A stretch of 39,468 nt of DNA from Planctomycetota bacterium. Its GTDB lineage: Bacteria; Planctomycetota; SBBH01; JACQRN01. The stretch is taken from NCBI GenBank assembly GCA_016206515.1, contig JACQRN010000211.1:1-39468 (forward strand). The letters are read 5' to 3'. Positions 957-23,501 of the stretch are shown here, piece after piece. Every line of letters begins with the position of its first letter. Within the stretch, counting starts at the first letter, position 1. Made by a program: the position numbers and the translations under genes. The notes beneath the pieces are model-generated. The model was not told the origin of the DNA. It did no database searches and was given only the letters and a program-made list of their open reading frames with translations.

Positions 957-960
957 GTGG

Positions 961-5649: not shown

Positions 5650-6099
5650 TCACGGCCCGGGCGGAGGGGAGGGCTTCAGGAGAAGTTCGAAGACCTTCGT
5701 GACGAGCTGGGAGACCTTGAACGGCTTGGGGACGAAGGCGTCGGGCTGGATCTTCGCCTGGCGGAGGCGGTCGAGACCCTTCGGGTGCGCGGTCATCATC
5801 ACCAGGCGGATGTGGCTCGTCCTGGGGTTGGTCTTGACGCGCTGGCACAGTTCCACGCCGTCGATCAACGGCATCATCATGTCCGTCAGGACGAGGACGG
5901 GGAGCTCCCGCTCGATCACCTCCAGCGCCGCCTTCCCGTCCGCCGCGTAGAGGATCCGGTACTGCCCGTCCTTTTCGAACTGCATCCGCAACAGATTCAG
6001 CAGGAGCCGGTTGTCCTCGGCCACGAGGATCGCGGGCGGGAGCGGCTTCCCCGCGGGGGGAGACTCGACCATGGGGGAAGTCTGGCAGACGGACCGCAT
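5650..6099 (-). CDS. single-domain response regulator, last gene of the filament operon
   Basis: Receiver motifs ILVAEDNRLLL, VLTDMMMPLIDG, VMMTAH, VPKPF. ATG at 6099 shares one base with the PilO-like TAA stop (TAATG). An alternative ATG is at 6072. The rest of the 396-aa ORF is an R/P/G-rich shadow. Confidence 0.8.
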   Translation of the reverse strand: MRSVCQTSPMVESPPAGKPLPPAILVAEDNRLLLNLLRMQFEKDGQYRILYAADGKAALEVIERELPVLVLTDMMMPLIDGVELCQRVKTNPRTSHIRLVMMTAHPKGLDRLRQAKIQPDAFVPKPFKVSQLVTKVFELLLKPSPPPGP

Positions 6100-6677
6100 T
6101 ACGGGAAGGTGTAAGCCTCCACCTGGAGGGCGCACCGCAACCCGTGCGGGCCCGCCTCGATCGACAGGGAGCGGAAGCAGACCGGCGGCGTCATCGTCGG
6201 CGCAAGCGGCCCGGCCTCTTCCAACCTCCGCAGGTACCCCACGACGGCGGGGAAGGGGCCCTCGAAGGAGATCTCTGCGAGGCGCTGCTGGAACTTCCCC
6301 ACCGGCTGCCCCCCCCGCTTGACCACCCCCGGCGTGGCGGCTAGATCGTAGGTGCGCCCCTTCAACAAGGTCTCGTACGACAGGAACCGGTCGGGGAGGC
6401 TCCCTTCGATCCGTTTCAGGAGCGCGCCGTTGACCGAGAGGATCTCCTGAAGACGCTCCACCTCCTGGCGCAACCCCTGCGGCGTGAACGGGAGCCTTCG
6501 CCCCTCCTGCAGGGCGGTCCAGCGGGGAATGATCGCGGCATAGACGTAGAAAAACGCGAACAGGCAGAACGCCCCCGCCTCGAACGCGACAAGCGTGCGA
6601 AGACGCACGGCCGGGACCCACGACGGCAGGCGCATACCCAGCAGGACGCGATCGAAACGGAGGATCCAGCGTCTCAC
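6099..6677 (-). CDS. pilO: PilO/GspM-like inner-membrane assembly protein
   Basis: GTG at 6677 in a GTGA overlap with the PilN stop. One N-terminal TM (LVAFEAGAFCLFAFFYVYAAII), then a coiled segment (LRQEVERLQEILSVNGALLKRIE) and a ferredoxin-like C-terminus. Position after pilM and pilN supports the call. An alternative ATG is at 6635. Confidence 0.7.
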   Translation of the reverse strand: MRRWILRFDRVLLGMRLPSWVPAVRLRTLVAFEAGAFCLFAFFYVYAAIIPRWTALQEGRRLPFTPQGLRQEVERLQEILSVNGALLKRIEGSLPDRFLSYETLLKGRTYDLAATPGVVKRGGQPVGKFQQRLAEISFEGPFPAVVGYLRRLEEAGPLAPTMTPPVCFRSLSIEAGPHGLRCALQVEAYTFP

Positions 6678-7270
6678 CGGGGCTCCTCGCCGGGAGGCGT
6701 CGGCATCGGCGCCCCGGCGATCTCCCGCACGAGGCACGGCGGGACAAGGGAACACTCGATCTCGACCTGCTGCCACCCGCTCTCGTCGTCCTGCAGGAGG
6801 CCCGGGGTGGCCGAGCGGATCCCGCCACGCCCCGATTCAAGATCCGCGAGAAATGCGACGAGCGCGGCGGAATCCTCGCACAGGACCGAGAGCCGCAGGG
6901 TGTCCGTATCCCGATCGATCTGGAGGGTCCGGAACCGGATCCGCCGGCCCGCCAGGGAGGCGGTATGCAGCAGGAGATCGGACCAGACGCGCCGGCCCGT
7001 GACGATCGTCATGACCCCCTGCGCCTCCAGGCGCATCCGCTCCAGCTCCCCCCGCTGGCGTTCCAACCGCGACATCCGCGCCAGCACCAAAGGATCGGTC
7101 GGCGCAAGGAGCCACCGCCGGTACACGAACCACCCCCCCTCCATCCCGAGCGCGGAGAGGGGAAGCAGGACGGCAAGGACCAGGAGGCTCAGCACGATCC
7201 CGTAATCGTCGCGCCTCCGGCGCAGTTCCCCCGGCAGGAGATTCAACGGCGGGATCCCCTGGTCGCTCAC
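6674..7270 (-). CDS. pilN: PilN-like inner-membrane assembly protein
   Basis: GTG at 7270 in a GTGA overlap with the PilM stop. N-terminal NLLP motif (IPPLNLLPGELRRRR), followed by a TM (IVLSLLVLAVLLPLSALG) and a coiled coil (RLERQRGELERMRLE). Confidence 0.75.
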   Translation of the reverse strand: MSDQGIPPLNLLPGELRRRRDDYGIVLSLLVLAVLLPLSALGMEGGWFVYRRWLLAPTDPLVLARMSRLERQRGELERMRLEAQGVMTIVTGRRVWSDLLLHTASLAGRRIRFRTLQIDRDTDTLRLSVLCEDSAALVAFLADLESGRGGIRSATPGLLQDDESGWQQVEIECSLVPPCLVREIAGAPMPTPPGEEPR

Positions 7271-8130
7271 GCCGCGATCCCATCGAGGACGCCGCAGCAG
7301 ACCGCGAACGCGGCGCCCGTCACCCCCGCCGGGAGCCCCCCCTGCGGGAGATCCGGCGGGTAGAGGATCGAGGCGGTCACCCCCAGGTGCATCTGCAGCG
7401 CGCCCGCGATGGCGTCGCTCGCGGCATCCCCGCACAACAGGACCAGGGAGACCGGCGCCAGGGGATGGCGCGTCTCGAAGTGGATCAGATGCCGCTCGCA
7501 GAACCGCAAGAGATCCTGCGCGCGGGGGGGCGCGGCGTGCCGCTGCACGCCGACCCCGCACAGCGCGTCGTTGCGCAGCAGCACGAGCACGGTGGCGTCG
7601 GCGCGCAGGTCGAGAAGCGCCAGGGCCTCCCCCCCCACCCTGGCCCCCAGCCGCGCGAGCGCCGTCGGCGCCACCTCGACGCGCTCGACCCACCCGCCCC
7701 GCGCGCGGACGGCTCGCGAGAGGGTCTCGACGAGCGCCCGGGGAGCCGATGCCAACAGATGCGGCGACGCCCCCTGAATCCCTCCCTCCTCCAGGGGGAA
7801 GGCGTCCAGAACGCTCTCCCGGGCGGCGTCGGGATGGACGCGCGAGACGTGCTCACGCAGGACGGCCTCCTGACCGCGCGTGTCCGGCGGGAGACGCAAG
7901 GTTCGGACCCAGGCAGAGGATCCCGAGAGCGCGAAATAACACGGGGCGCGACGCAGGGAGATCCGGTCCAGGAACCCCTCCAGGCGCCCCTCCCATCCCT
8001 CCTCGCCAGGGAGGATCCCCTCCGCGACGTGCGAGGCGACGATGGACACCCCCTGCGAGGTCCAGGACGCCTCGAGCGCGAGCGAGCGCGCATCGCCCAG
8101 GTCGATCCCCACCCCCCTTCGCGAAGGCAC
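7267..8130 (-). CDS. pilM: PilM-like actin-fold pilus assembly protein
   Basis: 287 aa. GTG start with a G-rich SD upstream (GAGAGGGGGGG). N-terminal GIDLG-type phosphate loop (VGIDLGDARSLAL). Size and position immediately upstream of pilN/pilO fit PilM. Confidence 0.75.
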   Translation of the reverse strand: MPSRRGVGIDLGDARSLALEASWTSQGVSIVASHVAEGILPGEEGWEGRLEGFLDRISLRRAPCYFALSGSSAWVRTLRLPPDTRGQEAVLREHVSRVHPDAARESVLDAFPLEEGGIQGASPHLLASAPRALVETLSRAVRARGGWVERVEVAPTALARLGARVGGEALALLDLRADATVLVLLRNDALCGVGVQRHAAPPRAQDLLRFCERHLIHFETRHPLAPVSLVLLCGDAASDAIAGALQMHLGVTASILYPPDLPQGGLPAGVTGAAFAVCCGVLDGIAA

Positions 8131-8166
8131 CCGCCCCCCCCTCTCACGCGGCCAGGCGCTGGCGCG

Positions 8167-9081
8167 TCACTGGCGTTCGTCGTCCCCCATCAGCATCCGC
8201 GGGACCTCGCCGCCGCGCCCCGCCTCGACGAGATACCGCACCGCGTAGAGGACCACCTGGTCCGTCCGTCCCCGGGCGGTCCGCCGCAGGAACCCCCGCA
8301 GGTAGTACGCCGCGGCGGAAACCTCCGCGCGTTCCGCGTACAGGCGCCCGAGGCCGAAGAAGGCATCCGCCACGCCTGTGCGCGACACGCGGATCGCGCG
8401 CCGGTACGCGGCCTCCTCCTCGGCGCCCAGGGCGAGAATCGCACAGGCGGTCCCGAGATTCGCCCACGCCTCGGCGCGGTCGGGATCCAGGTCGACGGCC
8501 TCCTTCAGGATGCCGTGCGCCTCCTGCGCGAGGCCGTGGTCGAGATAGAGCACCCCCAGGTCGCTGCGGATCGCCCCGTCCCGGGGCCAGCGTTCGAACA
8601 TCTCCCGGTACATCCCCCGGGCACTCTCCAGGAACCGCTCGGAGCGGGCCACGTCGCCGCTGCGCAACGCCCGCAGGGAGAGGTGGCCGTAGACGGCCGC
8701 CAGCTCCAGCCTCGGACGCTTGGCGTCGGGATCCTGTGCGAGCGCCTCCCGATACTGGCGGATCGCCTCCTCCGGCTCGCCCAGGCAGCGGAAGGAGATC
8801 CATCCGAGCCATAGCCGGAGCGTCGCCCGACGCGCCTCGACCGGCTGGATGTCCAGGGCGTCGGCGATCCGGTCGCGCGCCTGATGAAAGTACCCCGTGG
8901 CCATGGCGGGCGGCCCCGCGACCCCCTCTGCGTAGAGTCGCATCGCGTCGGCGACGAGATGCTCGAACAACAGCTGCCGCGCGGCACGGTCCCGCTGCGG
9001 GGCCTCCCGCCGGGAGTCCGAGACGCATCCGCACAGGAGGATCAGACAGGCCACCCACGACAGGAGCTGAGCGCGCCTCAC
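8167..9081 (-). CDS. TPR-repeat lipoprotein (PilF/PilW/MshN-like candidate secretin accessory)
   Basis: GTG start in a GTGA overlap with the secretin stop. Signal peptide with a Cys-containing lipobox-like end (ACLILLCGC). Repeated TPR-like A..Y......G....A motifs throughout. Confidence 0.7.
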   Translation of the reverse strand: MRRAQLLSWVACLILLCGCVSDSRREAPQRDRAARQLLFEHLVADAMRLYAEGVAGPPAMATGYFHQARDRIADALDIQPVEARRATLRLWLGWISFRCLGEPEEAIRQYREALAQDPDAKRPRLELAAVYGHLSLRALRSGDVARSERFLESARGMYREMFERWPRDGAIRSDLGVLYLDHGLAQEAHGILKEAVDLDPDRAEAWANLGTACAILALGAEEEAAYRRAIRVSRTGVADAFFGLGRLYAERAEVSAAAYYLRGFLRRTARGRTDQVVLYAVRYLVEAGRGGEVPRMLMGDDERQ

Positions 9082-10562
9082 CGGGCCCCCTCCCCCGGGA
9101 GGAAGACCCGCGTCTCCGAGCCGGAAGGGATCTCCAGCCGGTCGAGCCCCACGCCGGACGGCGGCCCCATGACCCAGTCCTCCACGGCCCCCCGCTCGGG
9201 GACGATGCGCGCGGTGACGAAGATCAGGAGGCTTTTCGGCTCGCGCTGGATCTTGACATTCCGGAACGGCGCGCCGAGCACGGGGATGCGCCCGAGCCCC
9301 GGCAGCCGCGAGGTGTTGCGCACCTCGCGGTTGCGGTAGAGCCCGCCGATCACGATCGTCTCGCCGTCACGCAGGAGGACCTGCGTGTCCGCCTCCGTCG
9401 TGAGAACCCGCGGGTAGAGGTCCCCGACGAGCTCCCCGAGCTCGCTGGCGGCGGGGTGGACGATCAGGCTGATCCGTTCGTCGCCGACGATGCGCGGGAT
9501 CACCAGCAGCTGGATTCCGATGTTCTCGAACCCCGCCAGCTCCGTGGTCTGGAGCCCCGTCAGGGCGTTGACATTCGTCGTCACGATCGGGAACCGCTCC
9601 CCGATCAGGATGCTCGCCTCGAGGTTATCCACCGTGTCGATTTGGGGCGACGAGATCGTCTGCGCCCGGTCGTCCGTCTCCACAAGTTTCAGGACCGCCG
9701 ACATCTGGGTGGCGTTCAGCGTCCCGAAGGTGAAGGTGCCCCCGGTCGACGGGAAGTTCTCCAGGGTGAAGTCCGACAGCGTCGGCTGCCCCGCCCGGAA
9801 CGGCCAGCTGGTCGGGCGTTGCGCACCGCTCGCGCCCGCCTGCACGTTCCAGTCGATCCCGAGGGTGCGGTCGAAGTCGAGGGTGGTCTCGACCAGCCGC
9901 GCCTCGATCCGGATCTGTCGGGGCTGGACGTCGAGGCGCGCGAGCGTCGAGCGGATCACATCGAGCCGCTCCGGAACGTCCGTGACCGTCAGGACCCTCG
10001 ACAGGCCCGCGCGCGTCGTCTCCACCCCCCGCCGTTCGGTCGCCCCGCCGTAGGTGAACGCCGGCCGCCCCTCCGGCGCGAAGACCTGGACCTTCCCCTG
10101 CGCCGAGACGAGCCCTTCGAGCAGGGTCCTGACGTCCGAGGCCGCCAGGTACCGCAATTCGAACACCTCGGTCCGCGTGCGCGTCCCGAGGTTCTGGAGC
10201 GTGTCGATCCGGAGGATCTCCCCCTCCCGCACGAAACCGTAGGCGTTGACCGCCAGGATGGACCGCAGGACATCCTCCCACGGGACGTCGCGCAGGACGA
10301 CCGTGACGCGCCCCGAGACCTCGGGGCCGACCACCAGGTTCAGCCGGGCCGTGTGGGCCAGGCGCTTGAGCAGATCCTGCAGGTCCGCGTTCCTCACATC
10401 CATCGAGACGAGTTCCTCCGGCTGGGGGAGCGCCTCCGCCCCGCCGGCGGGGGCAGGCTCCTGCGCCCCGACGCCCCGGAGAACCAGCAGGAAGAGGAGG
10501 GACGAGGCGATCCGCCACGCCGCGAACCGCTTAAGCGTTTCGGACCCCCCCGGGGGCCTCAA
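9078..10562 (-). CDS. secretin (GspD/PilQ family outer-membrane channel)
   Basis: Secretin C-domain motifs: VIPRIVGDERISLIVHPAASE, VLLRDGETIVIGGL, SRLPGLGRIPVLGAPFRN, LLIFVTARIV. An N-terminal AMIN/N0-like region (VSMDVRNADLQDLLKRLA) is present. The proposed start is TTG at 10562 in a TTGA overlap with the upstream stop, giving the signal peptide LKRFAAWRIASSLLFLLVLRGVGA. The ORF-track start at 10853 is R/G-rich. Confidence 0.85.
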   Translation of the reverse strand: MRPPGGSETLKRFAAWRIASSLLFLLVLRGVGAQEPAPAGGAEALPQPEELVSMDVRNADLQDLLKRLAHTARLNLVVGPEVSGRVTVVLRDVPWEDVLRSILAVNAYGFVREGEILRIDTLQNLGTRTRTEVFELRYLAASDVRTLLEGLVSAQGKVQVFAPEGRPAFTYGGATERRGVETTRAGLSRVLTVTDVPERLDVIRSTLARLDVQPRQIRIEARLVETTLDFDRTLGIDWNVQAGASGAQRPTSWPFRAGQPTLSDFTLENFPSTGGTFTFGTLNATQMSAVLKLVETDDRAQTISSPQIDTVDNLEASILIGERFPIVTTNVNALTGLQTTELAGFENIGIQLLVIPRIVGDERISLIVHPAASELGELVGDLYPRVLTTEADTQVLLRDGETIVIGGLYRNREVRNTSRLPGLGRIPVLGAPFRNVKIQREPKSLLIFVTARIVPERGAVEDWVMGPPSGVGLDRLEIPSGSETRVFLPGEGAR

Positions 10563-11062
10563 CGTGCGCCCCTCCCCCCCGGCGCATCGAGGCCCGTGCC
10601 GGATGCAAGCCGCAACGTCCGGACCCCCTCGGCCCCCTCGATCTCCACGCACTGCGGCTCGATCGCCCGGACGCGCCAAGCCCCGAGCGGGTTGCCGACC
10701 TGCACCCACTCCCCGCTCACGAGCGCCCAGCGCCCGTCCCGATCCTCGTAGATCCCCTCCAGTTCCAGCGGTCCCCGGCGCGTGGGGATCTCCTCCCGGC
10801 GGACGAACGGATCCGGCGCCATCCCCTCCAGGGGGACCTGGGGTTCCACCCAAACGAGTTCATGCCCTGCGATGTCCGGGATCCGCGCGGAGGGGCGTGG
10901 CGCCTCCGGCGCCCGGAGAGGCGCGAGCGGCGATTCCGGTGCGCGTTCGTCCCCGCGGTCCGGCCATTCCCATCCCATCCAGAGCAGGGAGGTCAACACG
11001 CACAAGCCCAGGATCTTCTCCCTCTTCGAGAGGCGCCTCAGACGTTCGTCCAGTGCGCCCAT
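10559..11062 (-). CDS. PilP/GspC-like small periplasmic protein with an N-terminal membrane anchor
   Basis: 167 aa from ATG 11062. Anchor ILGLCVLTSLLWMGW, a Pro-rich linker, then a small beta domain (WALVSGEWVQVGNPLGAWRVRAIEPQCVEIEG). It lies directly upstream of the secretin. Confidence 0.6.
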   Translation of the reverse strand: MGALDERLRRLSKREKILGLCVLTSLLWMGWEWPDRGDERAPESPLAPLRAPEAPRPSARIPDIAGHELVWVEPQVPLEGMAPDPFVRREEIPTRRGPLELEGIYEDRDGRWALVSGEWVQVGNPLGAWRVRAIEPQCVEIEGAEGVRTLRLASGTGLDAPGGRGAR

Positions 11063-11076
11063 CCCGTCGGACTCTC

Positions 11077-11511: not shown

Positions 11512-11562
11512 TGTAACCGACAAACGCCGGGCGCAAGGCAAGCCCTGGCCCTCCGCGCCGTC

Positions 11563-12696: not shown

Positions 12697-15600
12697 TCCT
12701 GCGCCACCCGCACGACCTCCTCGGGCGTCGTGACGCCCAAGACCGACATCTCGAACCCGCTCTCCCACAACGTCTTCATCCCCTCGGCGCGTGCCTGGGC
12801 GGCGATCGGGGAGGCGCCGGAGCCGCCCATCAGCAGCTTCCGGACCGGCTCGGTCACCTCGAGAAGTTCGAAAATCGCGCCCCGGCCCTTGTAGCCGCTC
12901 CCGTGGCACCGCGGGCACCCCTTCCCGTGCGTAAAATCGAATTCCACCCCGTCCACGCGCGCCAGGAGCGCCTCGATCACGGCGCGCGGCGGCTGGTAGA
13001 TCTCTCCGCACGCGGTGCAGACCTTTCGTACGAGCCTCTGCGCCAGGACGCCGACCACGGTCGTGGCGATCGAGTAGGGCTTCGCCCCCATCTCGACGAG
13101 GCGGATGAGCGCGCTGGCGGCGTCGTTCGTGTGGAGCGTCGAGAGGACGAGGTGCCCGGTCATCGCGGCCTGGCAGGCGATCTGCACGGTCTCCGCGTCG
13201 CGCATCTCGCCGATCATGATCACGTTCGGATCCTGCCGCAGGATCGAGCGCAGCCCCGTCGCGAAGGTGACCCCCGCCTTCGGGTTGATCTGCGTCTGGT
13301 TGATCCCCTTCAGCTGATACTCGACCGGGTCTTCGACCGTGATGATGTTCCTCTCGGCCGTATTGAGGACATTCAGCGACGCGTAGAGCGTGGTCGTCTT
13401 CCCCGACCCGGTCGGGCCGGTCACCAGGACGATCCCGTGGGGGGAATGGATCAGGCGCTCGTAGCGCCCGCGCATGTCGGGGTCCGAAAGGACGTCGGCC
13501 AGCTTCACCCTCGCCTGGGACTGGTCGAGGAGCCGCATGACGACCTTCTCGCCGTAGATCCCCGGCAGCGTCGAGACGCGGATGTCGACCCTCCGCCCCT
13601 GCACCTTCACGTAGATCCGCCCGTCCTGCGGGGCTCTACGCTCGGCGATGTCCAGGTTCGCCATCACCTTGACGCGACTGACCAGCGCCGGCAGCACGCT
13701 CTTCGGCGGGGACTTCTCCTCCTGGAGCATCCCGTCGACGCGGAACCGGACGCGCAGCGTCTTCTCCTCCGGCTCGAGGTGGATGTCGCTCGCGCCCGCG
13801 AGGACCGCCTGTCCGATGACCAGGTTCACCAGACGCACCACCGGCCCCCCCTGCCCCTCAAGCTCGGAGTACTCGACCTCCTTCTGCGCCTCCTCCTCGA
13901 TCACCTCGACGTCGCCCCCGCCCCCCTCGCCCCCCTCGATCTCGCTGAGCAGGTCCTGCATCGCGGCGCCGGGATCGGAGGAGGACGCCCCCCCCTCCTC
14001 GATCCGCCCGCGCAGCTCCCGGAGGACCCAGCGGGGAGCCACCATCCACTCCCCCGGCCCGCCGAGACGATCCTCGACCTGATCGAGGGCGAACGGATCC
14101 GTCGGATCCGCGGTGACCGCCACGGAGAACGCCTTGTCAGGCCCGCGTGCAACGCTGCGCAGGAGAAGGATCCCCGCCTCCTGAACCCAGGGCTCCGCGA
14201 CGGGCGCCACCTCTCCCGCCGGATACGGGAACGCCTCCGGCCCCGGCAGGAACGGCAGCCCCATCTCGCTGGCGAGGAACTGCAGGATCTTCCCCTCCGC
14301 GACGCCAGCCTTCTCGTGCAACCAGTGGGCGAACCCCGTCTGCGGCCATCCCCCCTCCCCCTCGAGACGCGAACGGATCTCCTCCGTGAGAACACCCTGC
14401 TGGACGAGACGCGCCAGAAGGGGGGGACGCTCCTGCCGGACGAGACGCGCCAGGAGGGGGACGCGCCCCCCCTTGGGGTGAACCTTTCGCGTCAGGGTCT
14501 CCCCATCGACATCCGCGTCGCCCAGGAGATCTCCGGAAACGACTTCCGCAGGGGGCGGAACCTCGGCACCCCCCGCAGGGTCCGCCTCCAGCAGATCCCG
14601 GACTTCCGCCTCCGCCGGTGGATCTTCGGAACCGGGCAATATCGCCCGGTCAAGCACCTCCTGCTCCAGCGCTCCCGCCGCCTCCTCCGGCTCCGCCGCC
14701 GCCTCCTCCCCACCGGCAGGCGTGTCGGTTTCCGAGGCGACCGTCGCCCCCTGTGGGGCCACGACAACCCCGGGAGTCGGAGGATCCTCCGGGGCGGGTC
14801 GAGCCGGCTCGTCCGGCACGGGCGGGGGGGGCATTGCAAGCGGCTCCGGGCTGGCTGCGGGCGCATCGGACAGCGCTCCGGCACCCTTCCGCGAAGCCTC
14901 GACCCTCGCAAGCGCCCCCGCCTGCGCCTCGCGCGCCTCGACCTGGAGGCGCGCGAGGATCGCTTGCCTCTCGAACCTGGCGGCGACCTCCCCGCGCAGG
15001 GATGCGAGCGCAAGGCGCCCCTCCTCCGCGCCCGCCATCCACGCGCCACGCAACGACGCGACCCGCGTCTGGATCGCCTGGACGTGCGACGAAAGCGCCC
15101 CCAGTTCCTGCTGGACCGCATCGGAATGACGGCCGGACTCCTCCGCGGCAGCCTGGAGCGAGCGAACCTGCGCCTCCGTCCGCGCCGCCTGCCACTCCAA
15201 CGCGCTCGCTCGCGCGCGCGCGGCCTCCCCCTCCCGCCGCAAAGCCTCGATCCGATCCACCCACTCCATGACACGCGAGGCGATACGGTTCTGGGCCCCC
15301 TGCACCTCCCTCTGCAAGCCCTCCAGCGCCACGAGCCGTCCGGAGATCCCCTCGGCGCCGCGGGCGATCTCCTCGGACGCCTGCTCCCGACACTCCACCC
15401 TTCGCCGCAGTTCCGAGAGTTCCTCGCCAAGCCTCTCCGAGCGCCCGGCCGCCTCCGACAGGTCCCGCAGCCGGCGCTCCACCTTCTCGATCGCGCCGTG
15501 GAGCGACCGCCTCCCCTCCTCCGACTGTCCCGACAGCACGCCCTCGATTTCCTGCCGCGCGACCTTGAGGTCCTGCGCCCACTCCCCCGGGAACCCCGCG

Positions 15601-15983
15601 AGGCGCGAGGCGACGTCCCGCTCCAGATTCGCGCGCGCGGCGCGTTCACGTTCCCACGCGGCCTTCTGCATCTGCTGCTGGGCGCCGATCCCGTCCTCCA
15701 GACCTTTCATGCGCGAGGCGAGCGGGTAGGCGATCTCCCAGGGGAGCGCTTCCAGGCGCTGCTGAAGCCCCGACACCGCCCCGGCAACCTCGACGCGCAG
15801 CGAGTGGAGCAGACCCTCGCGCAGCGCGGCGATCCGATCCTCGCGCAGGCCTCCCGTCGGTTCGAGCCCCGCCGCGACGTACCCTTGTCGCATCAGGAGG
15901 GGGATCTCCCGCTCCAGGAAGTCGGCGACGTCCCGTTCGAGACGGCGGACGATCCCCTCCCCGACAGGCTCCTCCGGCGTCAT
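12693..15983 (-). CDS. GspE/PilB-family secretion ATPase with a ~500-aa N-terminal coiled-coil/acidic extension
   Basis: C-terminal ~590 aa carry a T2SSE_N-like region (LLARLVQQGVLTEE...LASEMGLPF), Walker A GPTGSGKTT (13392-13418), VEDPVEY, IMIGEMRD, GHLVLSTLHTN and a tetracysteine CTAC...CPRCHGSGYKGR. ATG 15983 has GGAGG 11 nt upstream. There is no in-frame stop between the extension and the core. Confidence 0.85.
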   Translation of the reverse strand: MTPEEPVGEGIVRRLERDVADFLEREIPLLMRQGYVAAGLEPTGGLREDRIAALREGLLHSLRVEVAGAVSGLQQRLEALPWEIAYPLASRMKGLEDGIGAQQQMQKAAWERERAARANLERDVASRLAGFPGEWAQDLKVARQEIEGVLSGQSEEGRRSLHGAIEKVERRLRDLSEAAGRSERLGEELSELRRRVECREQASEEIARGAEGISGRLVALEGLQREVQGAQNRIASRVMEWVDRIEALRREGEAARARASALEWQAARTEAQVRSLQAAAEESGRHSDAVQQELGALSSHVQAIQTRVASLRGAWMAGAEEGRLALASLRGEVAARFERQAILARLQVEAREAQAGALARVEASRKGAGALSDAPAASPEPLAMPPPPVPDEPARPAPEDPPTPGVVVAPQGATVASETDTPAGGEEAAAEPEEAAGALEQEVLDRAILPGSEDPPAEAEVRDLLEADPAGGAEVPPPAEVVSGDLLGDADVDGETLTRKVHPKGGRVPLLARLVRQERPPLLARLVQQGVLTEEIRSRLEGEGGWPQTGFAHWLHEKAGVAEGKILQFLASEMGLPFLPGPEAFPYPAGEVAPVAEPWVQEAGILLLRSVARGPDKAFSVAVTADPTDPFALDQVEDRLGGPGEWMVAPRWVLRELRGRIEEGGASSSDPGAAMQDLLSEIEGGEGGGGDVEVIEEEAQKEVEYSELEGQGGPVVRLVNLVIGQAVLAGASDIHLEPEEKTLRVRFRVDGMLQEEKSPPKSVLPALVSRVKVMANLDIAERRAPQDGRIYVKVQGRRVDIRVSTLPGIYGEKVVMRLLDQSQARVKLADVLSDPDMRGRYERLIHSPHGIVLVTGPTGSGKTTTLYASLNVLNTAERNIITVEDPVEYQLKGINQTQINPKAGVTFATGLRSILRQDPNVIMIGEMRDAETVQIACQAAMTGHLVLSTLHTNDAASALIRLVEMGAKPYSIATTVVGVLAQRLVRKVCTACGEIYQPPRAVIEALLARVDGVEFDFTHGKGCPRCHGSGYKGRGAIFELLEVTEPVRKLLMGGSGASPIAAQARAEGMKTLWESGFEMSVLGVTTPEEVVRVAQE
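14401..14466 (-). repeat. in-frame 36-nt tandem duplication inside the ATPase gene
   Basis: The core GGACGAGACGCGCCAG occurs at 14403-14418 and 14439-14454 (+ strand text). It encodes PLLARLVRQERP / PLLARLVQQGVL at the entry of the T2SSE_N-like region. Confidence 0.75.
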
Positions 15984-15990
15984 CGCCCCA

Positions 15991-16392
15991 CTACCTCCAG
16001 GATACCCGCGTGACGCCCCCCCCCACGCCCACCGTGACCACGACCGTACGCGAGGCATTCCCCCACGTCCCGGTCGAGGCGATCTCGACGTTCCCGGAGA
16101 CGTCCGCGAGGCTCGTCGTGTACGTCCCCGTGACGCCGTCGGCGGTGGCGAAACTCTTCCCCGAGAACCCCGTCCTCCAGGAGGCGTTGCCGATCAGCTC
16201 CCGGATCGCGTCCTCCGCGCCCGCCTCGGCGCAGTAGAGCGCCATCGCCCCTCGCCACTCGTTGTCGACAATCTTGACGTGCCGCCGGGCGTTCTGGAGG
16301 AACGTCACGCAGATCGAGAACAGGATCACCATCGTCCCGAGCGCCAGGACGAACACCGCCCCGCGGGAGCCCTCCCTCCCTTTCACGCTCAT
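15991..16392 (-). CDS. PilX/GspK-like minor pseudopilin
   Basis: 133 aa from ATG 16392, in an ATGA overlap with the upstream stop. Non-canonical N-terminal hydrophobic helix GAVFVLALGTMVILFSICVTFL, followed by ALYCAEAGAEDAIRELI as in PilX_N-type proteins. Only the last third of the 539-aa ORF looks coding. Confidence 0.65.
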   Translation of the reverse strand: MSVKGREGSRGAVFVLALGTMVILFSICVTFLQNARRHVKIVDNEWRGAMALYCAEAGAEDAIRELIGNASWRTGFSGKSFATADGVTGTYTTSLADVSGNVEIASTGTWGNASRTVVVTVGVGGGVTRVSWR

Positions 16393-18134
16393 CGCAACCG
16401 GACCGCCGTAGTCCCCGACACGCTGCGCGTCCCGTCGGAGACCGTCAGGCTCACCTGGACCACTTCGGAGGCGATGGTCACGTCGTCCCAGACCCCCAGC
16501 GCGCCGTCCGTGACCGTCTGCCAGGAGACGGTTCCGTCGTCGAACGTGCCACCGGCATGGCTGTGGATCTGCGCGTACCCGACCCCCGAATCGAGGTAGA
16601 CGAGCACCCCGGCGGTGCCGAGCCGCATCTTCACCTTGTACGCGGTTCCGGCGGTCCACGCCGCCAGCGAGTCGGTGGCCTGCTGGGAGATCCCCCCCAG
16701 GTTGTAGAAAAAGCGGACGGTGTTGTCGCTGCGGAACTCGACCGCGTAGCCGGTGTCCGACGCATCCCAGGTGCCGTACTGCAGCGCGTAGGCGGTCCCC
16801 GCCGCGCCCCCCCCCCCGGCGCCGACGTTCGGGAACGAGGTCCGCGCCGTGTTCGAGAAACGGACGTCGTCGAGCATGCCGTCGAGGTACGCGGCGCCCT
16901 GGAGGCTCCCCAGGGTGAGCGACTCCCCGTTCGTCCAGTCTCCCATTCGCGCCGCCGAGGCCTCCTGCGTCCCGTTGACGTACAACCGCATCGTCGTCCC
17001 GTCGTACGTCGCTGCCACGTGGGTCCATGTCCCGGCCGACACCTGCGTCGATCCCAGCGCCGTCGAACCGTTCCCGGCCCCCGTGTCCACGCGGAACTGG
17101 AACTTCCGGCTGCTCTCCAGCGTCAGTTCGAACCCGTCGTCCGACCCCGACCTCTTCCCGGCGATCCCCTGCACGCTCCCCGACCCCACCGTGTCGAACT
17201 TCACCCACGCCTCGATCGTGAAGCTCGCGGGATCGAGCACCGCATCGTCCGATATCTGGAGGTGGTCGTTCGTCCCATCGAACGACAGGCCGTTGCCGAA
17301 CTTCCCCGCCGTCCACTCGGTGCCCAGCATGTTCTGCAGCGGGCCGTCGCGGTTGTTCGCGCTCGCGTCGTCCGCGGACGTCCCTCCCGTCTCGTCCAGG
17401 CGCAGCAGCATCACCGTGTTCGCATCGACGGTCAGCGCGGTGTCGGAGGTCCCGGCGCCGCCGGGGGTGTAGGTGGCCTCGACGACCAGGCCGGACCGGC
17501 GGAAGGTCCCGGCCGAGCGGATCCCGTTCGCCTCGGAACTCCCGTTGCCGGTCACGCGCATCGTGGAGAGCGACTCGACAACGTTCGACCCCGAATCGGT
17601 CTTCGTCCACTTCGCGGTGTCGATCGCGTCGTCGTTGAAGTCGTCGGTCTGCGACTCGTACGTGGCGCGGAACGCCGTGACCCCCTGCGCAAGATCCTGC
17701 GCGGTCCCGTACCCGCCCCCCGTGTCGGTCGAGCGCTGCAGCGTCGAGCCGGAAATCGCGTACTTCACCTTCTCCGTCCCGGAGCCGGTGTCCAGGAGGT
17801 ACGTCGTGGTCAGTTCCAGCAGGGTGGTGTTCGCCGCGTTCACGGCGGTCCCGTAGCGCCCCTCCCGCTCGATCCTCGACAGCGCGACCCGCAGATTCTG
17901 CAGAAGATCCCCCCTCCCGTTATGGTCGCGCCAGACGCGCACCCCCATCGCCAGGGCACCCGCCATGGACGTCGAGATCACCCCGACGATCGCCATGGCC
18001 ATCACCAGTTCGACGAGCGTCAGCCCCGGCGGACGCGGGCGCTTACAACCCGTGACAGAACGTCGCAGAAGATCCCGCGAAGCGCGAGGCGTCCAGCGTC
18101 CAGCGGGGTTCTGCAACAGCCTCTCACTCGGCAT
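16389..18134 (-). CDS. large minor pseudopilin with a LamG/concanavalin-like domain (GspJ position)
   Basis: Prepilin motif G|LTLVELVMAMAIVGVIS. The LamG_3-like core is LSFDGTNDHLQISDDAVLDPASFTIEAWVKFD...GTWTHVAATYDGTTMRLYVNG...LDGMLDDVRFSN. The start is uncertain: ATG 18134 gives a 37-aa leader and an 11-nt overlap with the upstream gene. Confidence 0.8.
   Translation of the reverse strand: MPSERLLQNPAGRWTPRASRDLLRRSVTGCKRPRPPGLTLVELVMAMAIVGVISTSMAGALAMGVRVWRDHNGRGDLLQNLRVALSRIEREGRYGTAVNAANTTLLELTTTYLLDTGSGTEKVKYAISGSTLQRSTDTGGGYGTAQDLAQGVTAFRATYESQTDDFNDDAIDTAKWTKTDSGSNVVESLSTMRVTGNGSSEANGIRSAGTFRRSGLVVEATYTPGGAGTSDTALTVDANTVMLLRLDETGGTSADDASANNRDGPLQNMLGTEWTAGKFGNGLSFDGTNDHLQISDDAVLDPASFTIEAWVKFDTVGSGSVQGIAGKRSGSDDGFELTLESSRKFQFRVDTGAGNGSTALGSTQVSAGTWTHVAATYDGTTMRLYVNGTQEASAARMGDWTNGESLTLGSLQGAAYLDGMLDDVRFSNTARTSFPNVGAGGGGAAGTAYALQYGTWDASDTGYAVEFRSDNTVRFFYNLGGISQQATDSLAAWTAGTAYKVKMRLGTAGVLVYLDSGVGYAQIHSHAGGTFDDGTVSWQTVTDGALGVWDDVTIASEVVQVSLTVSDGTRSVSGTTAVRLR
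16807..16817 (-). repeat. G11 homopolymer (C11 on + strand) inside the LamG pseudopilin coding sequence
   Basis: Encodes GAGGGGAAG (GCC GGG GGG GGG GGC). The length is cross-checked against the opposite-strand ORF translation (RRAPPPGAD). Confidence 0.8.
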
Positions 18135-18510
18135 TGGCGCGGTAGGCGACCAGGCTGCGCGAACTGGGGCGGTTCGACAGGCCGGTCCAGGTGATGGTCG
18201 CGACGATCTTCTTGAGATTCGCCTGCGGGGTCGTGACGACCGTCTCGACCTGGAAGGAGGCGTCCTCGGGTACCGCCGCGATCGTGACGGACGCGACCTC
18301 CGCATACGGCCGCGCGATCTGCGCCTCCACCTCCCGCCGCAGGTACCCGTGCGCCAAGGTGCGCTGCTTGGCGATCCGCTCCGACAGGATGCCGACCTGG
18401 AGGATTTCGGTCGCCGAGACGATCGAGATCGACAGCAACATCAGGGCGAAGAGAACCTCCACCAGGGTAAACCCCTCCGCAAGCCGCCCGACGGGCCGCG
18501 CCGTCGCCAC
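18124..18510 (-). CDS. GspI/PilV-like minor pseudopilin
   Basis: GTG at 18510 gives the leader VATARPVGRLAEG followed by G|FTLVEVLFALMLLSISIV (Glu +5). 128 aa, with small beta-rich C-terminal part. Confidence 0.75.
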   Translation of the reverse strand: MATARPVGRLAEGFTLVEVLFALMLLSISIVSATEILQVGILSERIAKQRTLAHGYLRREVEAQIARPYAEVASVTIAAVPEDASFQVETVVTTPQANLKKIVATITWTGLSNRPSSRSLVAYRANAE

Positions 18511-18530
18511 GCCGCAGTCTACCCCGGCGC

Positions 18531-18992
18531 CTACTGGATCTTCACGATCCCGGTCCCGGCCACGACCGTGACGGTCTTGGCACCCCCCCGGGCGATCGAC
18601 AGGAGCGCCTGCCCACCGGCGGAGGGCCCTCCGGAACCGTCGAAGTCGACCCGGTCGGAGGGAAATGTGGTCGAGTCGATCCGTGCGTGCCGGGGAAGGA
18701 CGACCGTCTCCTGCGCCGTGAAGCTCCCGCCCCCGGCATCCACCTCGAGCGTGGCGCGATCGAGCGCCGTGTCGAAGGTGACGCGCCAGGCGCGGTTCTC
18801 GGCCACCGCGCGCGCCTGCGCCTCGCGCAGAAGCGCGCGCAACTGCGAGGCCGCCGCGTCGAGATCCCGCAATGCGGCCGACTCCCCGATCTTGACCGCC
18901 CCGGTCACCGCCAGGACCGCCACGATCACGAGGATGAACGCGATCTCGATGAGGGTCATGCCGCGAACCACCCGGAAGCGCGGGATCCTCAT
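18531..18992 (-). CDS. GspH/FimT-like minor pseudopilin, first gene of the operon
   Basis: ATG 18992. Leader MRIPRFRVVRG followed by G|MTLIEIAFILVIVAVLAV (Glu +5). GspH-like segment AASQLRALLREAQARAVAENR...VTF. 153 aa. Confidence 0.8.
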   Translation of the reverse strand: MRIPRFRVVRGMTLIEIAFILVIVAVLAVTGAVKIGESAALRDLDAAASQLRALLREAQARAVAENRAWRVTFDTALDRATLEVDAGGGSFTAQETVVLPRHARIDSTTFPSDRVDFDGSGGPSAGGQALLSIARGGAKTVTVVAGTGIVKIQ

Positions 18993-19058
18993 GGCGGGCC
19001 CCCGGGATCTTAACTCCTCGAATCGACACCCCGCGCGAGTCGAGGTACCCTTCGCACC

Positions 19059-22161: not shown

Positions 22162-22255
22162 GAGCCGGACGACGAGCGCCGTTTCCTCCGGATAGGAAGG
22201 AACCGCAGGGCGCCGGGGAGCGTCTCACGAGACGGGAATGGAAAGGGGGAGGACG

Positions 22256-23491: not shown

Positions 23492-23501
23492 ACCACACCT
23501 T

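What the first reader, a model, noticed from the sequence alone, without database searches (positions are those of the whole stretch)
5650..18992. 14-gene hybrid type IV filament operon: T2SS-style pseudopilins with T4P-style PilMNO, and no retraction ATPase or peptidase
Gene order on the - strand is: GspH-like, GspI-like, LamG-bearing J-position pseudopilin, PilX/GspK-like, extended GspE/PilB ATPase, GspF/PilC, GspG-like major pseudopilin (no Cys pair), PilP/GspC-like, secretin, TPR lipoprotein, PilM, PilN, PilO, CheY-like RR. The H-I-J-K block and the GspG-like major subunit are T2SS hallmarks. Separate PilM/PilN/PilO genes (rather than GspL/GspM) and a TPR lipoprotein next to the secretin are T4aP/MSH hallmarks. 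No PilT/PilU, prepilin peptidase or obvious secreted substrate is in the window. Nearly every junction is a start/stop overlap: ATGA at 16389-16392; GTGA at 12693-12696, 9078-9081, 7267-7270 and 6674-6677; TTGA at 10559-10562; TAATG at 6099. That implies tight translational coupling of the whole machine.
Basis: partly seen in the sequence, partly recalled or inferred. Interest (0 to 1): 0.65.

Follow-up and report, generated by a model that had tools for sequence, protein, structure and literature searches.

The report
Divergent planctomycete type IV pilus operon
This is a real, tightly packed 14-gene operon for a type IV filament (pilus-like) machine from an uncultured planctomycete; its mix of "secretion-system" and "pilus" labels mostly reflects naming built on Proteobacteria, so it is an unusual variant rather than a new kind of machine.

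Summary

- **Confirmed by HMMs:** a GspH-like pilin, a pilin carrying a LamG domain, the ATPase, the platform protein, a GspG-like major pilin with no cysteine, the secretin, a TPR lipoprotein and a receiver protein.
- **PilM/N/O calls fail every Pfam and NCBIfam threshold.**
  - PilM is rescued by a full HMMER scan (all real hits are PilM_2 proteins) and by a confident AlphaFold model whose best structural matches are PilM.
  - PilN is supported by an LNLLPGELR motif followed by one membrane helix.
  - PilO rests on topology and position only.
  - The protein before the secretin is GspC/PilP-like only through a chain of weak homology.
- **"Hybrid" is only partly supported.**
  - The secretin is PilQ-type.
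  - The ATPase and the platform protein do not discriminate between the two classes.
  - The H-I-J-K minor-pilin set is shared by pili and secretion systems.
  - Operons that combine GspE-F-G labels with PilM/PilN/PilO are common in uncultured phyla.
  - "Generic" and chimeric type IV filament systems are already documented in the literature.

Unusual points are a roughly 540-residue coiled-coil and linker extension on the ATPase, the lectin-type minor pilin, a shortened PilM, and the scarcity of relatives.

Best reading: a divergent T4aP-like pilus with a lectin at its tip. Interest is modest.

The parts
18531..18992 (-). G1, minor pilin, GspH/FimU-like (153 aa); leader cut after Gly, mature end MTLIE
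   Evidence: Pfam GspH 27.8 bits against cutoff 21. NCBIfam ComGD, PpdA and GspH all fall far below their cutoffs. Class III signal peptide.
18124..18510 (-). G2, small minor pilin in the I/PilV position (128 aa); G|FTLVE
   Evidence: Only the N_methyl motif passes. Best NCBIfam hits are PilV at 5.8e-5 and GspI at 0.017, both under cutoff.
16389..18134 (-). G3, modular minor pilin (581 aa): class III signal (G|LTLVE), pilin-sized region, LamG/ConA-like lectin domain (residues 286-432), and a C-terminal region of about 150 aa with no family hit
   Evidence: Laminin_G_3 1.1e-34 plus N_methyl. 61% identity to the LamG protein in L005. 'J position' is inferred from gene order only.
15991..16392 (-). 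G4, small pilin-like protein lacking Glu5 (133 aa), in the K/PilX position
   Evidence: N-terminus G|AVFVLALGTMV with one hydrophobic helix. No Pfam hit. GspK at E 0.04 only.
12693..16058 (-). G5, assembly ATPase (1121 aa, or 1096 aa from the ATG at 15983). Coiled-coil residues about 30-400, Pro/Ala/Glu linker 400-560, weak MshEN-like stretch, then a GspE/PilB ATPase core with Walker A and B, His box and two CxxC motifs
   Evidence: T2SSE 5e-138. GspE 566 bits (cutoff 630), PilB 528 bits (cutoff 676). In PDB, EpsE 416, Geobacter PilB 408 and PilF 383 bits. Motifs. Weak SMC/Rad50 coiled-coil hits.
11563..12696 (-). G6, inner-membrane platform protein GspF/PilC (377 aa)
   Evidence: T2SSF 8e-59, two repeats. 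GspF 320 bits (cutoff 424), PilC 300 bits (cutoff 700).
11077..11511 (-). G7, major pilin (144 aa; G|VTLIE), GspG-like N-terminal half, no cysteine
   Evidence: T2SSG 24.1 bits (cutoff 21), N_methyl. GspG 54.8 bits (cutoff 88.85). In PDB, Geopilin 44, PulG 34 and M. xanthus PilA 29 bits, mostly over the N-terminal helix. Zero Cys.
10559..11062 (-). G8, GspC-HR/PilP-like connector (167 aa): weak N-terminal hydrophobic anchor, Pro-rich linker, C-terminal beta domain; no lipobox, no PDZ
   Evidence: No direct HMM or PDB hit. hhalign gives 85% probability, E 6e-6, to the small protein that follows PilO in L009, L012 and L013. All three of those hit Pfam T2SSC weakly, best E 1e-3.
9078..10562 (-). 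G9, outer-membrane secretin, PilQ-type core (494 aa): signal peptide, N0/STN, one Secretin_N domain, secretin domain; no AMIN domains
   Evidence: Pfam. PilQ 217 against GspD 188 bits. In PDB, M. xanthus PilQ 147.5 bits over residues 28-455, against at most 97 bits for GspD.
8167..9081 (-). G10, TPR lipoprotein (304 aa; lipobox LLCGC), candidate secretin assembly factor
   Evidence: Multiple TPR families. Weak PilW (40.9 bits, cutoff 154) and Tgl hits. Lipobox. The role is inferred from adjacency to the secretin.
7267..8130 (-). G11, divergent, shortened PilM (287 aa), cytoplasmic actin-like protein with no membrane segment
   Evidence: No Pfam or NCBIfam hit. All 8 real hits of the full HMMER scan are PF11104 PilM_2 proteins. 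AlphaFold pLDDT 87. Foldseek top matches are PilM 5eou/5eox/2ych (E 2e-21, TM 0.74), then FtsA, then EpsL cytoplasmic domain (E 2e-11).
6674..7270 (-). G12, PilN-like (198 aa): N-terminal LNLLPGELRRRR, one membrane helix (25-43), periplasmic domain
   Evidence: The motif matches the invariant INLLPPEIK found at the junction of PilM-PilN fusion proteins. Membrane helix. No HMM or PDB hit. hhalign on the periplasmic part is not significant (E 0.18).
6099..6677 (-). G13, PilO/GspM-like by topology only (192 aa): one membrane helix (32-50), a long helix, then two alpha-beta-beta units
   Evidence: Membrane helix. Secondary-structure order from a low-confidence AlphaFold model, pLDDT 39. No HMM or PDB hit. 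hhalign to PilO proteins E 0.57.
5650..6099 (-). G14, stand-alone CheY-like receiver protein (149 aa) with the acidic pocket, phospho-acceptor Asp72, Thr102 and Lys125
   Evidence: Response_reg 3.9e-21. Conserved residues. One-base overlap (TAATG) with G13.

Best explanation
The block is one operon encoding a complete, self-contained type IV filament machine of the T4aP architectural type. It belongs to an uncultured, high-GC planctomycete.

**Proposed working (inferred from the characterised families).**
1. Five prepilins (major G7; minor G1-G4) insert into the inner membrane. A prepilin peptidase encoded elsewhere cuts them after the conserved Gly.
2. The hexameric zinc-type ATPase G5 drives the platform protein G6.
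3. G5 docks on a cytoplasmic PilM (G11). PilM is held at the membrane by the N-terminal NLLP peptide of PilN (G12).
4. PilN and PilO (G12, G13) connect through the GspC-HR/PilP-like G8 to the N0 domain of a PilQ-type secretin (G9). The TPR lipoprotein G10 assists secretin assembly.
5. The four minor pilins prime the fibre and sit at its tip, so the LamG lectin module of G3 is displayed at the end of a filament built from the GspG-like pilin.

**Most likely output.** A surface fibre that binds glycans or polysaccharides, for adhesion or substrate capture.

**Likely regulation.** The co-translated receiver protein G14 and the convergent cluster of histidine kinase, response regulators, HDOD and HD-GYP-type proteins probably regulate the machine.

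**On the labels.** The T2SS-type labels on E, F, G and C reflect a lineage that lies outside, or between, the proteobacterial reference families. They do not show a secretion system.
For: **Shown here.**
- Operon structure and overlaps.
- Core parts pass Pfam.
- Class III signal peptides, and one minor pilin without Glu5.
- G11 is PilM by chained homology and by fold, with PilM well ahead of GspL.
- G12 has the NLLP motif plus one membrane helix, matching the invariant INLLP of PilM-PilN fusions.
- The secretin matches PilQ over its full length.
- G8 is homologous to the protein that follows PilO in related operons, and those proteins link weakly to T2SSC.
- The ATPase has Walker motifs and the tetracysteine site.
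- LamG domain at 1e-34 on a pilin.

**From the literature.**
- HIJK-type minor pilins form a conserved tip and priming complex. A lectin-module pilin (Streptococcus sanguinis PilC) mediates glycan binding (PMC9934059).
- PilM binds the first residues of PilN and binds the ATPase (PMC6325625).
- Planctomycete pili-like fibres bind dextran (PMC5394234), and T4P are reported to aid adhesion to chitin (PMC11131199).

**Taxon.** TypA is 64-67% identical to Phycisphaerae and Planctomycetota proteins, and the window carries DUF1579.
Against: - No function was tested.
- PilO is unsupported beyond topology, and the AlphaFold model is unusable.
- The periplasmic domains of G12 and G13 show no significant profile match.
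- The major pilin, ATPase and platform protein score slightly better against T2SS models than against T4P models, and the E-F-G and C-D adjacencies follow T2SS order.
- No PilT, so there is no evidence for retraction. No peptidase is in the window.
- The secretin falls below the PilQ subfamily cutoff (217 against 284 bits).
- Tip placement of G3 and glycan binding are inferences.
- The taxon rests on one marker protein.
Confidence: 0.55

Rival explanations
1. It is a genuine type II secretion system of a non-proteobacterial type. A short GspG-like endopilus acts as a piston and pushes folded periplasmic proteins (for example polysaccharide-degrading enzymes) through the secretin. The LamG minor pseudopilin at the tip acts as a substrate or glycan-recognition module. 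The PilM/PilN/PilO proteins simply stand in for GspL/GspM.
For: - GspE, GspF and GspG are the best-scoring NCBIfam models, and Pfam T2SSG and GspH pass.
- Gene adjacencies E-F-G and C-like followed by secretin follow T2SS order.
- G8 links to T2SSC and is membrane-anchored rather than a lipoprotein.
- No retraction ATPase in 39 kb.
- The major pilin has no disulfide.
- Denise et al. reassigned many generic systems in other phyla to T2SS.
Against: - All T2SS equivalog cutoffs are missed.
- The secretin is PilQ-type, with only N0 and one N-domain detected instead of the N0-N3 vestibule.
- No fused GspL; PilM and PilN are separate.
- No candidate substrate gene lies in the operon.
- Lectin-module pilins are known so far from surface pili.
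Confidence: 0.25
2. It is a true evolutionary chimera. An operon was assembled by recombination from a T2SS (pseudopilins, E, F, G, C) and a T4aP (Q, TPR protein, M, N, O).
For: - The HMM labels split into two contiguous blocks: 18992-10559 carries mostly Gsp labels and 10562-6099 mostly Pil labels.
- Denise et al. propose a chimeric origin for the chlamydial T2SS.
Against: - GC content and third-position GC are uniform across the block.
- The margins between Gsp and Pil scores are small for E and F (566 vs 528 and 320 vs 300 bits).
- The ATPase is equidistant from solved GspE and PilB.
- The same label mix occurs in unrelated lineages with other gene orders. That fits an ancestral or intermediate state, or HMM bias, better than a recent fusion.
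- No phylogeny was run.
Confidence: 0.1
3. It is a DNA-uptake (competence) pilus of the Thermus or Vibrio T4aP kind.
For: - PilM/N/O, a TPR protein and the secretin are co-located, as in the Thermus pilMNOWQ locus, which I know from the literature rather than from a result here. The ATPase has a long N-terminal extension, as PilF does (PMC6325625).
- PilF is among the close PDB matches.
Against: - No ComEA, ComEC, DprA or other competence gene is in the window.
- The ATPase extension is coiled coil, not repeated GSPII/MshEN domains.
- A lectin module points to glycans rather than DNA.
Confidence: 0.05

Closest known systems
Type IVa pilus machines of Myxococcus xanthus, Thermus thermophilus and Pseudomonas aeruginosa (PilB/C, PilM/N/O/P, PilQ, and the TPR lipoproteins Tgl, PilW or PilF)
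   Same: - PilM fold, with top structural matches 5eou, 2ych and 3jc8.
- PilN-type NLLP peptide plus a single membrane helix.
- PilQ-type secretin core, 147 bits to M. xanthus PilQ.
- A TPR lipoprotein beside the secretin.
- An extended N-terminus on the ATPase, as in PilF.
- A four-member minor-pilin set.
   Different: - All parts sit in one operon and in a different order: minor pilins, E, F, G, C-like, Q, TPR, M, N, O.
- PilM is about 60-100 residues shorter than the solved PilM proteins.
- No AMIN domains on the secretin.
- The P-like protein is not a lipoprotein.
- The major pilin is short, GspG-like and has no cysteine.
- No PilT or PilD nearby.
- PilB, PilC, PilQ and PilW all fall below NCBIfam cutoffs. 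Pfam and NCBIfam do not detect PilM, PilN, PilO or a PilP/GspC-like protein at all.
Proteobacterial type II secretion system (GspC-M, as in Eps, Pul and Xcp)
   Same: - E-F-G adjacency, and a C-like gene directly before the secretin.
- GspG-like N-terminal half of the major pilin.
- Four minor pseudopilins, including one without Glu5.
- GspE and GspF are the best-scoring HMMs.
- Tetracysteine ATPase.
   Different: - No fused GspL and no detectable GspM family member.
- The secretin is not GspD-type: N0-N3 and the S domain are not found.
- No PDZ domain on the C-like protein.
- All equivalog cutoffs are missed.
- The K-position protein is 133 aa, against about 300 aa for GspK.
- A lectin-bearing pseudopilin is not a known T2SS feature.
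Uncharacterised operons with the order GspE, GspF, GspG, minor pilins, PilM/PilN fusion, PilO, small C-like protein, in Omnitrophota and other uncultured lineages (L009, L012, L013)
   Same: - Closest well-sampled ATPases, about 50% identity.
- T2SSG-type pilin together with PilM_2/PilN/PilO-type platform proteins.
- Homologous small C-like protein (hhalign E 6e-6).
- Neighbouring two-component genes.
   Different: - There PilM and PilN are fused, giving a GspL-like architecture, and the minor pilins follow G.
- No secretin or TPR gene is in those operons.
- Their ATPases are about 565 aa and lack the coiled-coil extension.
Modular lectin pilin PilC of Streptococcus sanguinis type IV pili (PMC9934059)
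   Same: A ConA-like/LamG lectin module is grafted onto a minor pilin that belongs to a tip complex.
   Different: - The host is a monoderm.
- No detectable sequence relation apart from the fold superfamily.
- G3 has an additional C-terminal region of about 150 aa and a longer pilin moiety.
Metagenomic contig L005 (JGI 3300045502, Ga0494960_00030206)
   Same: This is the only real relative found. Its LamG protein is 61% identical and its ATPase 52% identical. The order LamG protein, coiled-coil protein, ATPase, then an ORF cut off by the contig end (not checked; platform protein by analogy) matches.
   Different: - The coiled-coil protein is a separate 1280-aa ORF rather than being fused to the ATPase.
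- No G4-like gene lies between them.
- The contig is only 6.8 kb, so the rest of the operon is unknown.

Membership tests
Type II secretion system (Gsp) | ATPase meets the GspE equivalog model | tested here: not met
   TIGR02533 scores 566.2 bits against a cutoff of 630.25. PDB scores for EpsE (416) and PilB (408) are about equal.
Type II secretion system (Gsp) | GspL (cytoplasmic actin-like domain fused to a membrane helix and a periplasmic domain) together with GspM | tested here: not met
   G11 is a soluble PilM-like protein with no membrane segment. The membrane helix and periplasmic part lie on the separate G12. The alignment profile hits GspL at E 0.026 against PilM at 3e-68.
Type II secretion system (Gsp) | GspD-type secretin (N0-N3 plus secretin domain) | tested here: not met
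   TIGR02517 scores 188 bits against a cutoff of 351. Only N0 and one Secretin_N domain are detected. PDB GspD matches reach at most 97 bits and mostly cover the C-terminal domain.
Type II secretion system (Gsp) | GspG major pseudopilin | tested here: inconclusive
   Pfam T2SSG scores 24.1 bits (cutoff 21) over residues 44-90 only. TIGR01710 scores 54.8 bits against a cutoff of 88.85. The best PDB hit is Geopilin.
Type II secretion system (Gsp) | GspH, GspI, GspJ and GspK minor pseudopilins | tested here: inconclusive
   Pfam GspH passes at 27.8 bits, but this family also covers T4P FimT/FimU (that is my own knowledge, not tested here). The GspH, I, J and K equivalogs all fail: 28.9 against 80, 15.6 against 44, 14 against 65 and 13 against 130 bits. 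The set is shared with T4aP.
Type II secretion system (Gsp) | GspC with an HR domain contacting secretin N0 | tested here: inconclusive
   G8 has no direct hit. hhalign gives E 6e-6 to a family whose members hit T2SSC weakly, best E 1e-3. No PDZ domain.
Type II secretion system (Gsp) | Secretes folded periplasmic proteins | not testable with these tools
   No substrate gene is recognisable in the operon.
Type IVa pilus (T4aP) | Cytoplasmic actin-like PilM | tested here: met
   All 8 real HMMER hits are PilM_2 proteins. The AlphaFold model has pLDDT 87, and the top Foldseek matches are PilM at E 2e-21, TM 0.74. G11 itself fails the Pfam threshold.
Type IVa pilus (T4aP) | PilN: N-terminal (I/L)NLLP peptide followed by one membrane helix | tested here: met
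   G12 residues 9-17 read LNLLPGELR, against the invariant INLLPPEIK in PilM-PilN fusions. Membrane helix at 25-43. The periplasmic domain has no significant match.
Type IVa pilus (T4aP) | PilO | tested here: inconclusive
   No HMM or PDB hit. hhalign E 0.57. The AlphaFold model has pLDDT 39. Only the topology and the gene position fit.
Type IVa pilus (T4aP) | PilP as a lipoprotein | tested here: not met
   G8 has no lipobox (the residue before the Cys is Leu) and only a weak hydrophobic N-terminus.
Type IVa pilus (T4aP) | PilQ secretin | tested here: inconclusive
   It is the best match (TIGR02515 217 bits; M. xanthus PilQ 147 bits over the full length) but falls below the 284-bit cutoff. No AMIN domains.
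Type IVa pilus (T4aP) | PilB equivalog, and PilT retraction ATPase | tested here: not met
   PilB scores 528 bits against a cutoff of 676. No second T2SSE-family gene is in the window. The rest of the genome is not available.
Type IVa pilus (T4aP) | Major pilin with a disulfide-bonded C-terminal D-region | tested here: not met
   G7 has no cysteine.
MSH pilus | MshL secretin and MshE with an MshEN domain | tested here: not met
   MshL scores 100.9 bits against a cutoff of 250.2. MshEN scores 17.3 bits against a cutoff of 23.1.
'Generic' type IV filament system as defined by Denise et al. 2019 | Co-located ATPase, inner-membrane platform protein and major pilin (with or without a secretin) that fit no specific class | tested here: met
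   T2SSE, T2SSF, an N_methyl pilin and a secretin are in one operon. No class-specific equivalog cutoff is met. The definition is in PMC6668835. MacSyFinder itself was not run.
Modular type IV pilins | Class III signal peptide plus a grafted functional module | tested here: met
   G3 has G|LTLVE plus Laminin_G_3 at 1e-34. The concept is described in PMC9934059.

The most novel reading that the evidence does not exclude
The operon, together with its single relative L005, could represent a distinct, deep-branching class of type IV filament lying between T4aP and T2SS. It would keep unfused PilM and PilN and a PilQ-type secretin while using a GspG-like pilin, a GspC-like connector and no retraction motor. 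It would work as a non-retractile, lectin-tipped fibre or endopilus for polysaccharide capture or export in Planctomycetota. The coiled-coil module attached to the ATPase (fused here, a separate 1280-aa protein in L005) would be a new, class-specific anchoring or regulatory part.
Probability: 0.12. Interest if true: 0.6.

Novelty: new variant of a known kind. Interest (0 to 1): 0.33.

Why it matters
**If the reading is right**
- It adds a compact, single-operon, sequence-divergent T4aP-like machine from a poorly sampled planctomycete lineage.
- It gives a concrete genetic candidate for the glycan-binding pili-like fibres seen on planctomycetes, namely a minor pilin carrying a LamG lectin.
- It is a natural example of unfused PilM and PilN sitting beside GspG- and GspC-like parts. 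That bears on how T2SS GspL/GspM arose from T4aP PilM/N/O.

**Practical lesson**
- Standard HMM libraries miss PilM, PilN, PilO and the PilP/GspC-like G8 in such lineages. Gsp versus Pil labels assigned outside Proteobacteria should not be read as function.

**Limits**
- It does not change the current picture of the superfamily, which already includes many 'generic' and chimeric systems.

Tried and rejected
- **Word-indexed homologue search for G11** found only itself. The full HMMER scan was needed.
- **Genome and metagenome scans with the platform protein** gave only relatives at 30-35% identity: Oligoflexales, a Nitrospirae bacterium and one 1.5-kb fragment. No syntenic relative came from them.
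- **The two top ATPase hits, P0002 and P0003,** turned out to be tandem or chimeric ATPase ORFs on short contigs, not relatives.
- **Looking up the window's own contig** returned nothing.
G13 alone gave pLDDT 39, so no fold search was run on it.
- **phmmer of G8, G12, G13 and G1 against PDB** gave only noise. A profile of G8 with its relatives against PDB also gave noise.
- **hhalign of G12 and G13** against PilN parts and PilO proteins of related operons was not significant.
- **Comparing the G5 N-terminus with the L005 coiled-coil protein** showed only compositional similarity (E 0.02).
- **MSH assignment** was considered because of the TPR-secretin adjacency, and rejected on MshL and MshEN scores.
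- **c-di-GMP binding by the MshEN-like stretch** was considered but not claimed. The Pfam hit is below threshold, and by eye the key Arg, Gly and Gln positions of the motif are not kept.
- **No reference phylogeny** was attempted, because no labelled reference set was available offline.

Full report
**1. Observation**

The window has about 70% GC. A third-position GC frame plot and a start-codon survey resolve 5650-18992 into 14 consecutive minus-strand genes, G1 to G14, with no plus-strand gene inside.
- ATGA at 16389-16392;
- GTGA at 12693-12696, 9078-9081, 7267-7270 and 6674-6677;
- TTGA at 10559-10562;
- TAATG at 6097-6101.

Gaps between genes range from -11 to +51 nt. The simple scans found no terminator-like site between the genes; the one promoter-like match (11178-11149) lies inside the G7 coding sequence. 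Three overlapping starts are backed by N-terminal features that begin immediately after them: a signal peptide in the secretin, the lipobox LLCGC in the TPR protein, and the NLLP motif in G12. The structural observation is confirmed. Translational coupling is a reasonable inference from it.

**2. Parts that pass standard models**

| Gene | Result |
|---|---|
| G1 | Pfam GspH 27.8 bits (cutoff 21) |
| G2 | N_methyl only |
| G3 | N_methyl plus Laminin_G_3, 1e-34 |
| G5 | T2SSE 5e-138 |
| G6 | T2SSF 8e-59 |
| G7 | T2SSG 24.1 bits (cutoff 21) plus N_methyl |
| G9 | Secretin 7e-38, with N0/STN and one Secretin_N domain |
| G10 | TPR repeats |
| G14 | Response_reg 4e-21 |

G1, G2, G3 and G7 have G|(M/F/L/V)TL(I/V)E class III signals. 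G4 has G|AVFVL without Glu5, as expected for a GspK/PilX-type subunit. G7 has no cysteine. G5 has Walker A and B motifs, a His box and two CxxC motifs.

**3. Parts that fail standard models**

G4, G8, G11, G12 and G13 have no Pfam hit even at E<=10, and no meaningful NCBIfam hit.

- **G11 (PilM).**
  - The word-indexed search found only itself.
  - The exhaustive HMMER scan found 10 further proteins at E 5e-7 to 6e-4.
  - The eight non-repetitive hits all carry PF11104 PilM_2. Two of them are PilM-PilN fusions.
  - A profile of G11 with these hits matches solved PilM proteins at 3e-68 to 5e-49, and GspL only at 0.026.
  - An AlphaFold model built from that alignment is confident (pLDDT 87, pTM 0.87).
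  - Its best PDB matches are Pseudomonas aeruginosa and Thermus PilM (E about 2e-21, TM 0.74). FtsA follows, then the cytoplasmic domain of EpsL/GspL (E 2e-11).
  - G11 has no membrane segment.
  - Conclusion: G11 is a divergent PilM, shortened to 287 aa.
- **G12 (PilN).**
  - Residues 9-17 read LNLLPGELR and are followed by one membrane helix at 25-43.
  - PilM-PilN fusion proteins from related operons have an invariant INLLPPEIK at the same place before their membrane helix (alignment A3).
  - In Thermus, the first eight PilN residues bind PilM (PMC6325625).
  - The periplasmic domain gives no significant match.
- **G13 (PilO).** It has one membrane helix. A low-confidence model (pLDDT 39) shows the order helix, then two alpha-beta-beta units, which fits PilO/GspM. 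No search supports it. PilO therefore remains a call from position and topology.
- **G8 (GspC/PilP-like).**
  - hhalign matches it at 85% probability, E 6e-6, to the small protein that follows PilO in three related operons.
  - All three of those proteins hit Pfam T2SSC weakly, best E 1e-3.
  - G8 has no lipobox and no PDZ domain.

**4. Which class?**

| Component | T2SS score | T4aP score | Source |
|---|---|---|---|
| ATPase, NCBIfam | GspE 566 (cutoff 630) | PilB 528 (cutoff 676) | |
| ATPase, PDB | EpsE 416 | Geobacter PilB 408; PilF 383 | |
| Platform | GspF 320 (cutoff 424) | PilC 300 (cutoff 700) | |
| Major pilin, NCBIfam | GspG 54.8 (cutoff 88.85) | M. xanthus-type PilA model 35.5 (cutoff 400) | |
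| Major pilin, PDB | PulG 34 | Geopilin 44; M. xanthus PilA 29 | |
| Secretin, NCBIfam | GspD 188 (cutoff 351) | PilQ 217 (cutoff 284) | |
| Secretin, PDB | GspD at most 97, mostly C-terminal | M. xanthus PilQ 147.5, full length | |

The major-pilin PDB matches are largely confined to the N-terminal helix.

So the secretin and the alignment complex are T4aP-type. The ATPase and platform do not discriminate. The pilin and the connector lean towards T2SS labels. The H-I-J-K block is not specific to T2SS, because it is a complex conserved across type IV filaments (PMC9934059). MSH fails on MshL and MshEN scores.

**5. Context from other sequences**

- **Taxon.**
  - TypA from the window is 64-67% identical to Phycisphaerae and Planctomycetota proteins.
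  - It is 94% identical to one protein from an NCBI MAG, assembly GCA_964373005.1.
  - A planctomycete-associated DUF1579 protein is also present.
- **Relatives are very sparse.**
  - Scans with the platform protein found only hits at 30-35% identity.
  - The only true relative is a 6.8-kb JGI contig, L005. Its order is LamG protein (61% identity), a 1280-aa coiled-coil protein, the ATPase (52% identity), then a 62-residue ORF cut off by the contig end, which by analogy should be the platform protein but was not checked.
- **Closest well-sampled ATPases** (about 50% identity) sit in operons with the order GspE, GspF, T2SSG pilin, two small proteins, a K/PilX-like protein, a PilM-PilN fusion, PilO and a small C-like protein. 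These operons often lie next to two-component genes (L009, L012, L013).
- **Implication.** The mix of Gsp labels with PilM/N/O is therefore common outside Proteobacteria.
- **Published background.** Denise et al. 2019 describe 884 'generic' systems, chimeric matches, and a Bacteroidetes 'T2SS' that clusters with T4aP (PMC6668835).

**6. Mechanism**

The parts map one-to-one onto the T4aP assembly model:
1. Pilins are processed by a peptidase encoded elsewhere.
2. The ATPase and platform form the motor.
3. PilM is tethered through the PilN peptide.
4. PilN and PilO, with the G8 connector, reach the secretin N0 domain.
5. The TPR lipoprotein assists secretin assembly.
6. The minor-pilin complex primes the fibre and caps it.

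The LamG module on G3 parallels the lectin-module pilin PilC of Streptococcus sanguinis, which binds glycans at the pilus tip. Planctomycete pili-like fibres bind dextran (PMC5394234), and T4P are reported to aid adhesion to chitin (PMC11131199).

I therefore favour a glycan-binding surface fibre (confidence about 0.55). A T2SS-like endopilus is the main rival (0.25). The receiver protein G14 is probably regulatory, as is the convergent cluster of kinase, RR-PAS, HDOD and RR-HD-GYP-type genes at 868-5609. That role is inferred.

**7. Unusual features**

- The ATPase carries about 400 residues of Ala/Arg/Glu/Leu-rich coiled coil plus about 160 residues of Pro/Ala/Glu linker ahead of the conserved core. 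In L005 the equivalent is a separate ORF.
- A lectin-type modular pilin occurs in a diderm system.
- PilM is shortened, and PilM, PilN, PilO and the PilP/GspC-like G8 are invisible to the Pfam and NCBIfam libraries.
- The gene order is unmatched in characterised organisms.

**8. Verdict**

The operon is real and well described. The 'hybrid' reading is only partly supported, and the broader phenomenon is already documented. It is best filed as a new variant of a known kind: a T4aP-like, 'generic' type IV filament system. Interest is 0.33.

Noticed in passing
window 14378-16058 (- strand; N-terminal 560 aa of G5) and L005 677-4519: The ATPase carries a coiled-coil region of about 400 aa plus a Pro/Ala/Glu-rich linker of about 160 aa fused to its N-terminus. 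In the only relative (L005), a separate 1280-aa coiled-coil ORF sits directly upstream of the ATPase. This suggests a conserved coiled-coil partner that is fused in one lineage and split in the other. Sequence similarity is only compositional (E 0.02).
   Followed up: partly
L009 15970-17508; L012 15488-17080; L013 15974-17602; proteins P0128 and P0131: These are PilM-PilN fusion proteins of about 480-560 aa. They keep an invariant GINLLPPEIK motif at the junction. The result is a GspL-like architecture that carries PilM_2/PilN signatures, inside operons with T2SS gene order.
   Followed up: partly
window 868-5609 (+ strand): A signalling cluster converges on the 3' end of the operon. It comprises a histidine kinase (868-2463), RR-PAS (2457-3275), an HDOD/HD protein (3238-4467) and an RR-HD_5 (HD-GYP-like) protein ending at 5609, which is 40 nt from the stop codon of G14.
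   Followed up: partly
window 25304-31987 (+ strand): A 2227-aa Leu/Ala-rich (18% each) polytopic membrane protein with no credible Pfam family. The region shows a marked AT skew of about -0.3.
   Followed up: no
window 22196-24728 (+ strand): Two adjacent proteins of about 420 aa, each with an N-terminal hydrophobic segment that looks like a signal peptide. Each has weak matches to squalene-hopene-cyclase/prenyltransferase repeats. Function unknown.
   Followed up: no
L011 (GCA_964373005.1, CAYJUE010000012.1) 5812-11618: The closest genome (TypA 94% identical) shares TypA-OsmC-MltA synteny with the window. It then carries a different filament-type cluster: three T2SSF paralogues, three small ORFs and a 391-aa T2SSE ATPase.
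   Followed up: no
window about 14340-14410 (- strand; G5 residues about 551-572): A short tandem duplication, PLLARLVRQERPPLLARLVQQG, lies upstream of the weak MshEN-like stretch of the ATPase (residues 646-690).
   Followed up: no
L006 and L007 (proteins P0002 and P0003): The top-scoring 'homologues' of the ATPase are ORFs with two tandem ATPase cores on short contigs. Their high bit scores are misleading.
   Followed up: yes
window 19014-20012 (+ strand): A divergently oriented 317-332 aa ORF with no family hit begins about 66 nt from the start of G1. It has Cys-rich zinc-ribbon-like motifs at its N-terminus and one hydrophobic helix.
   Followed up: no
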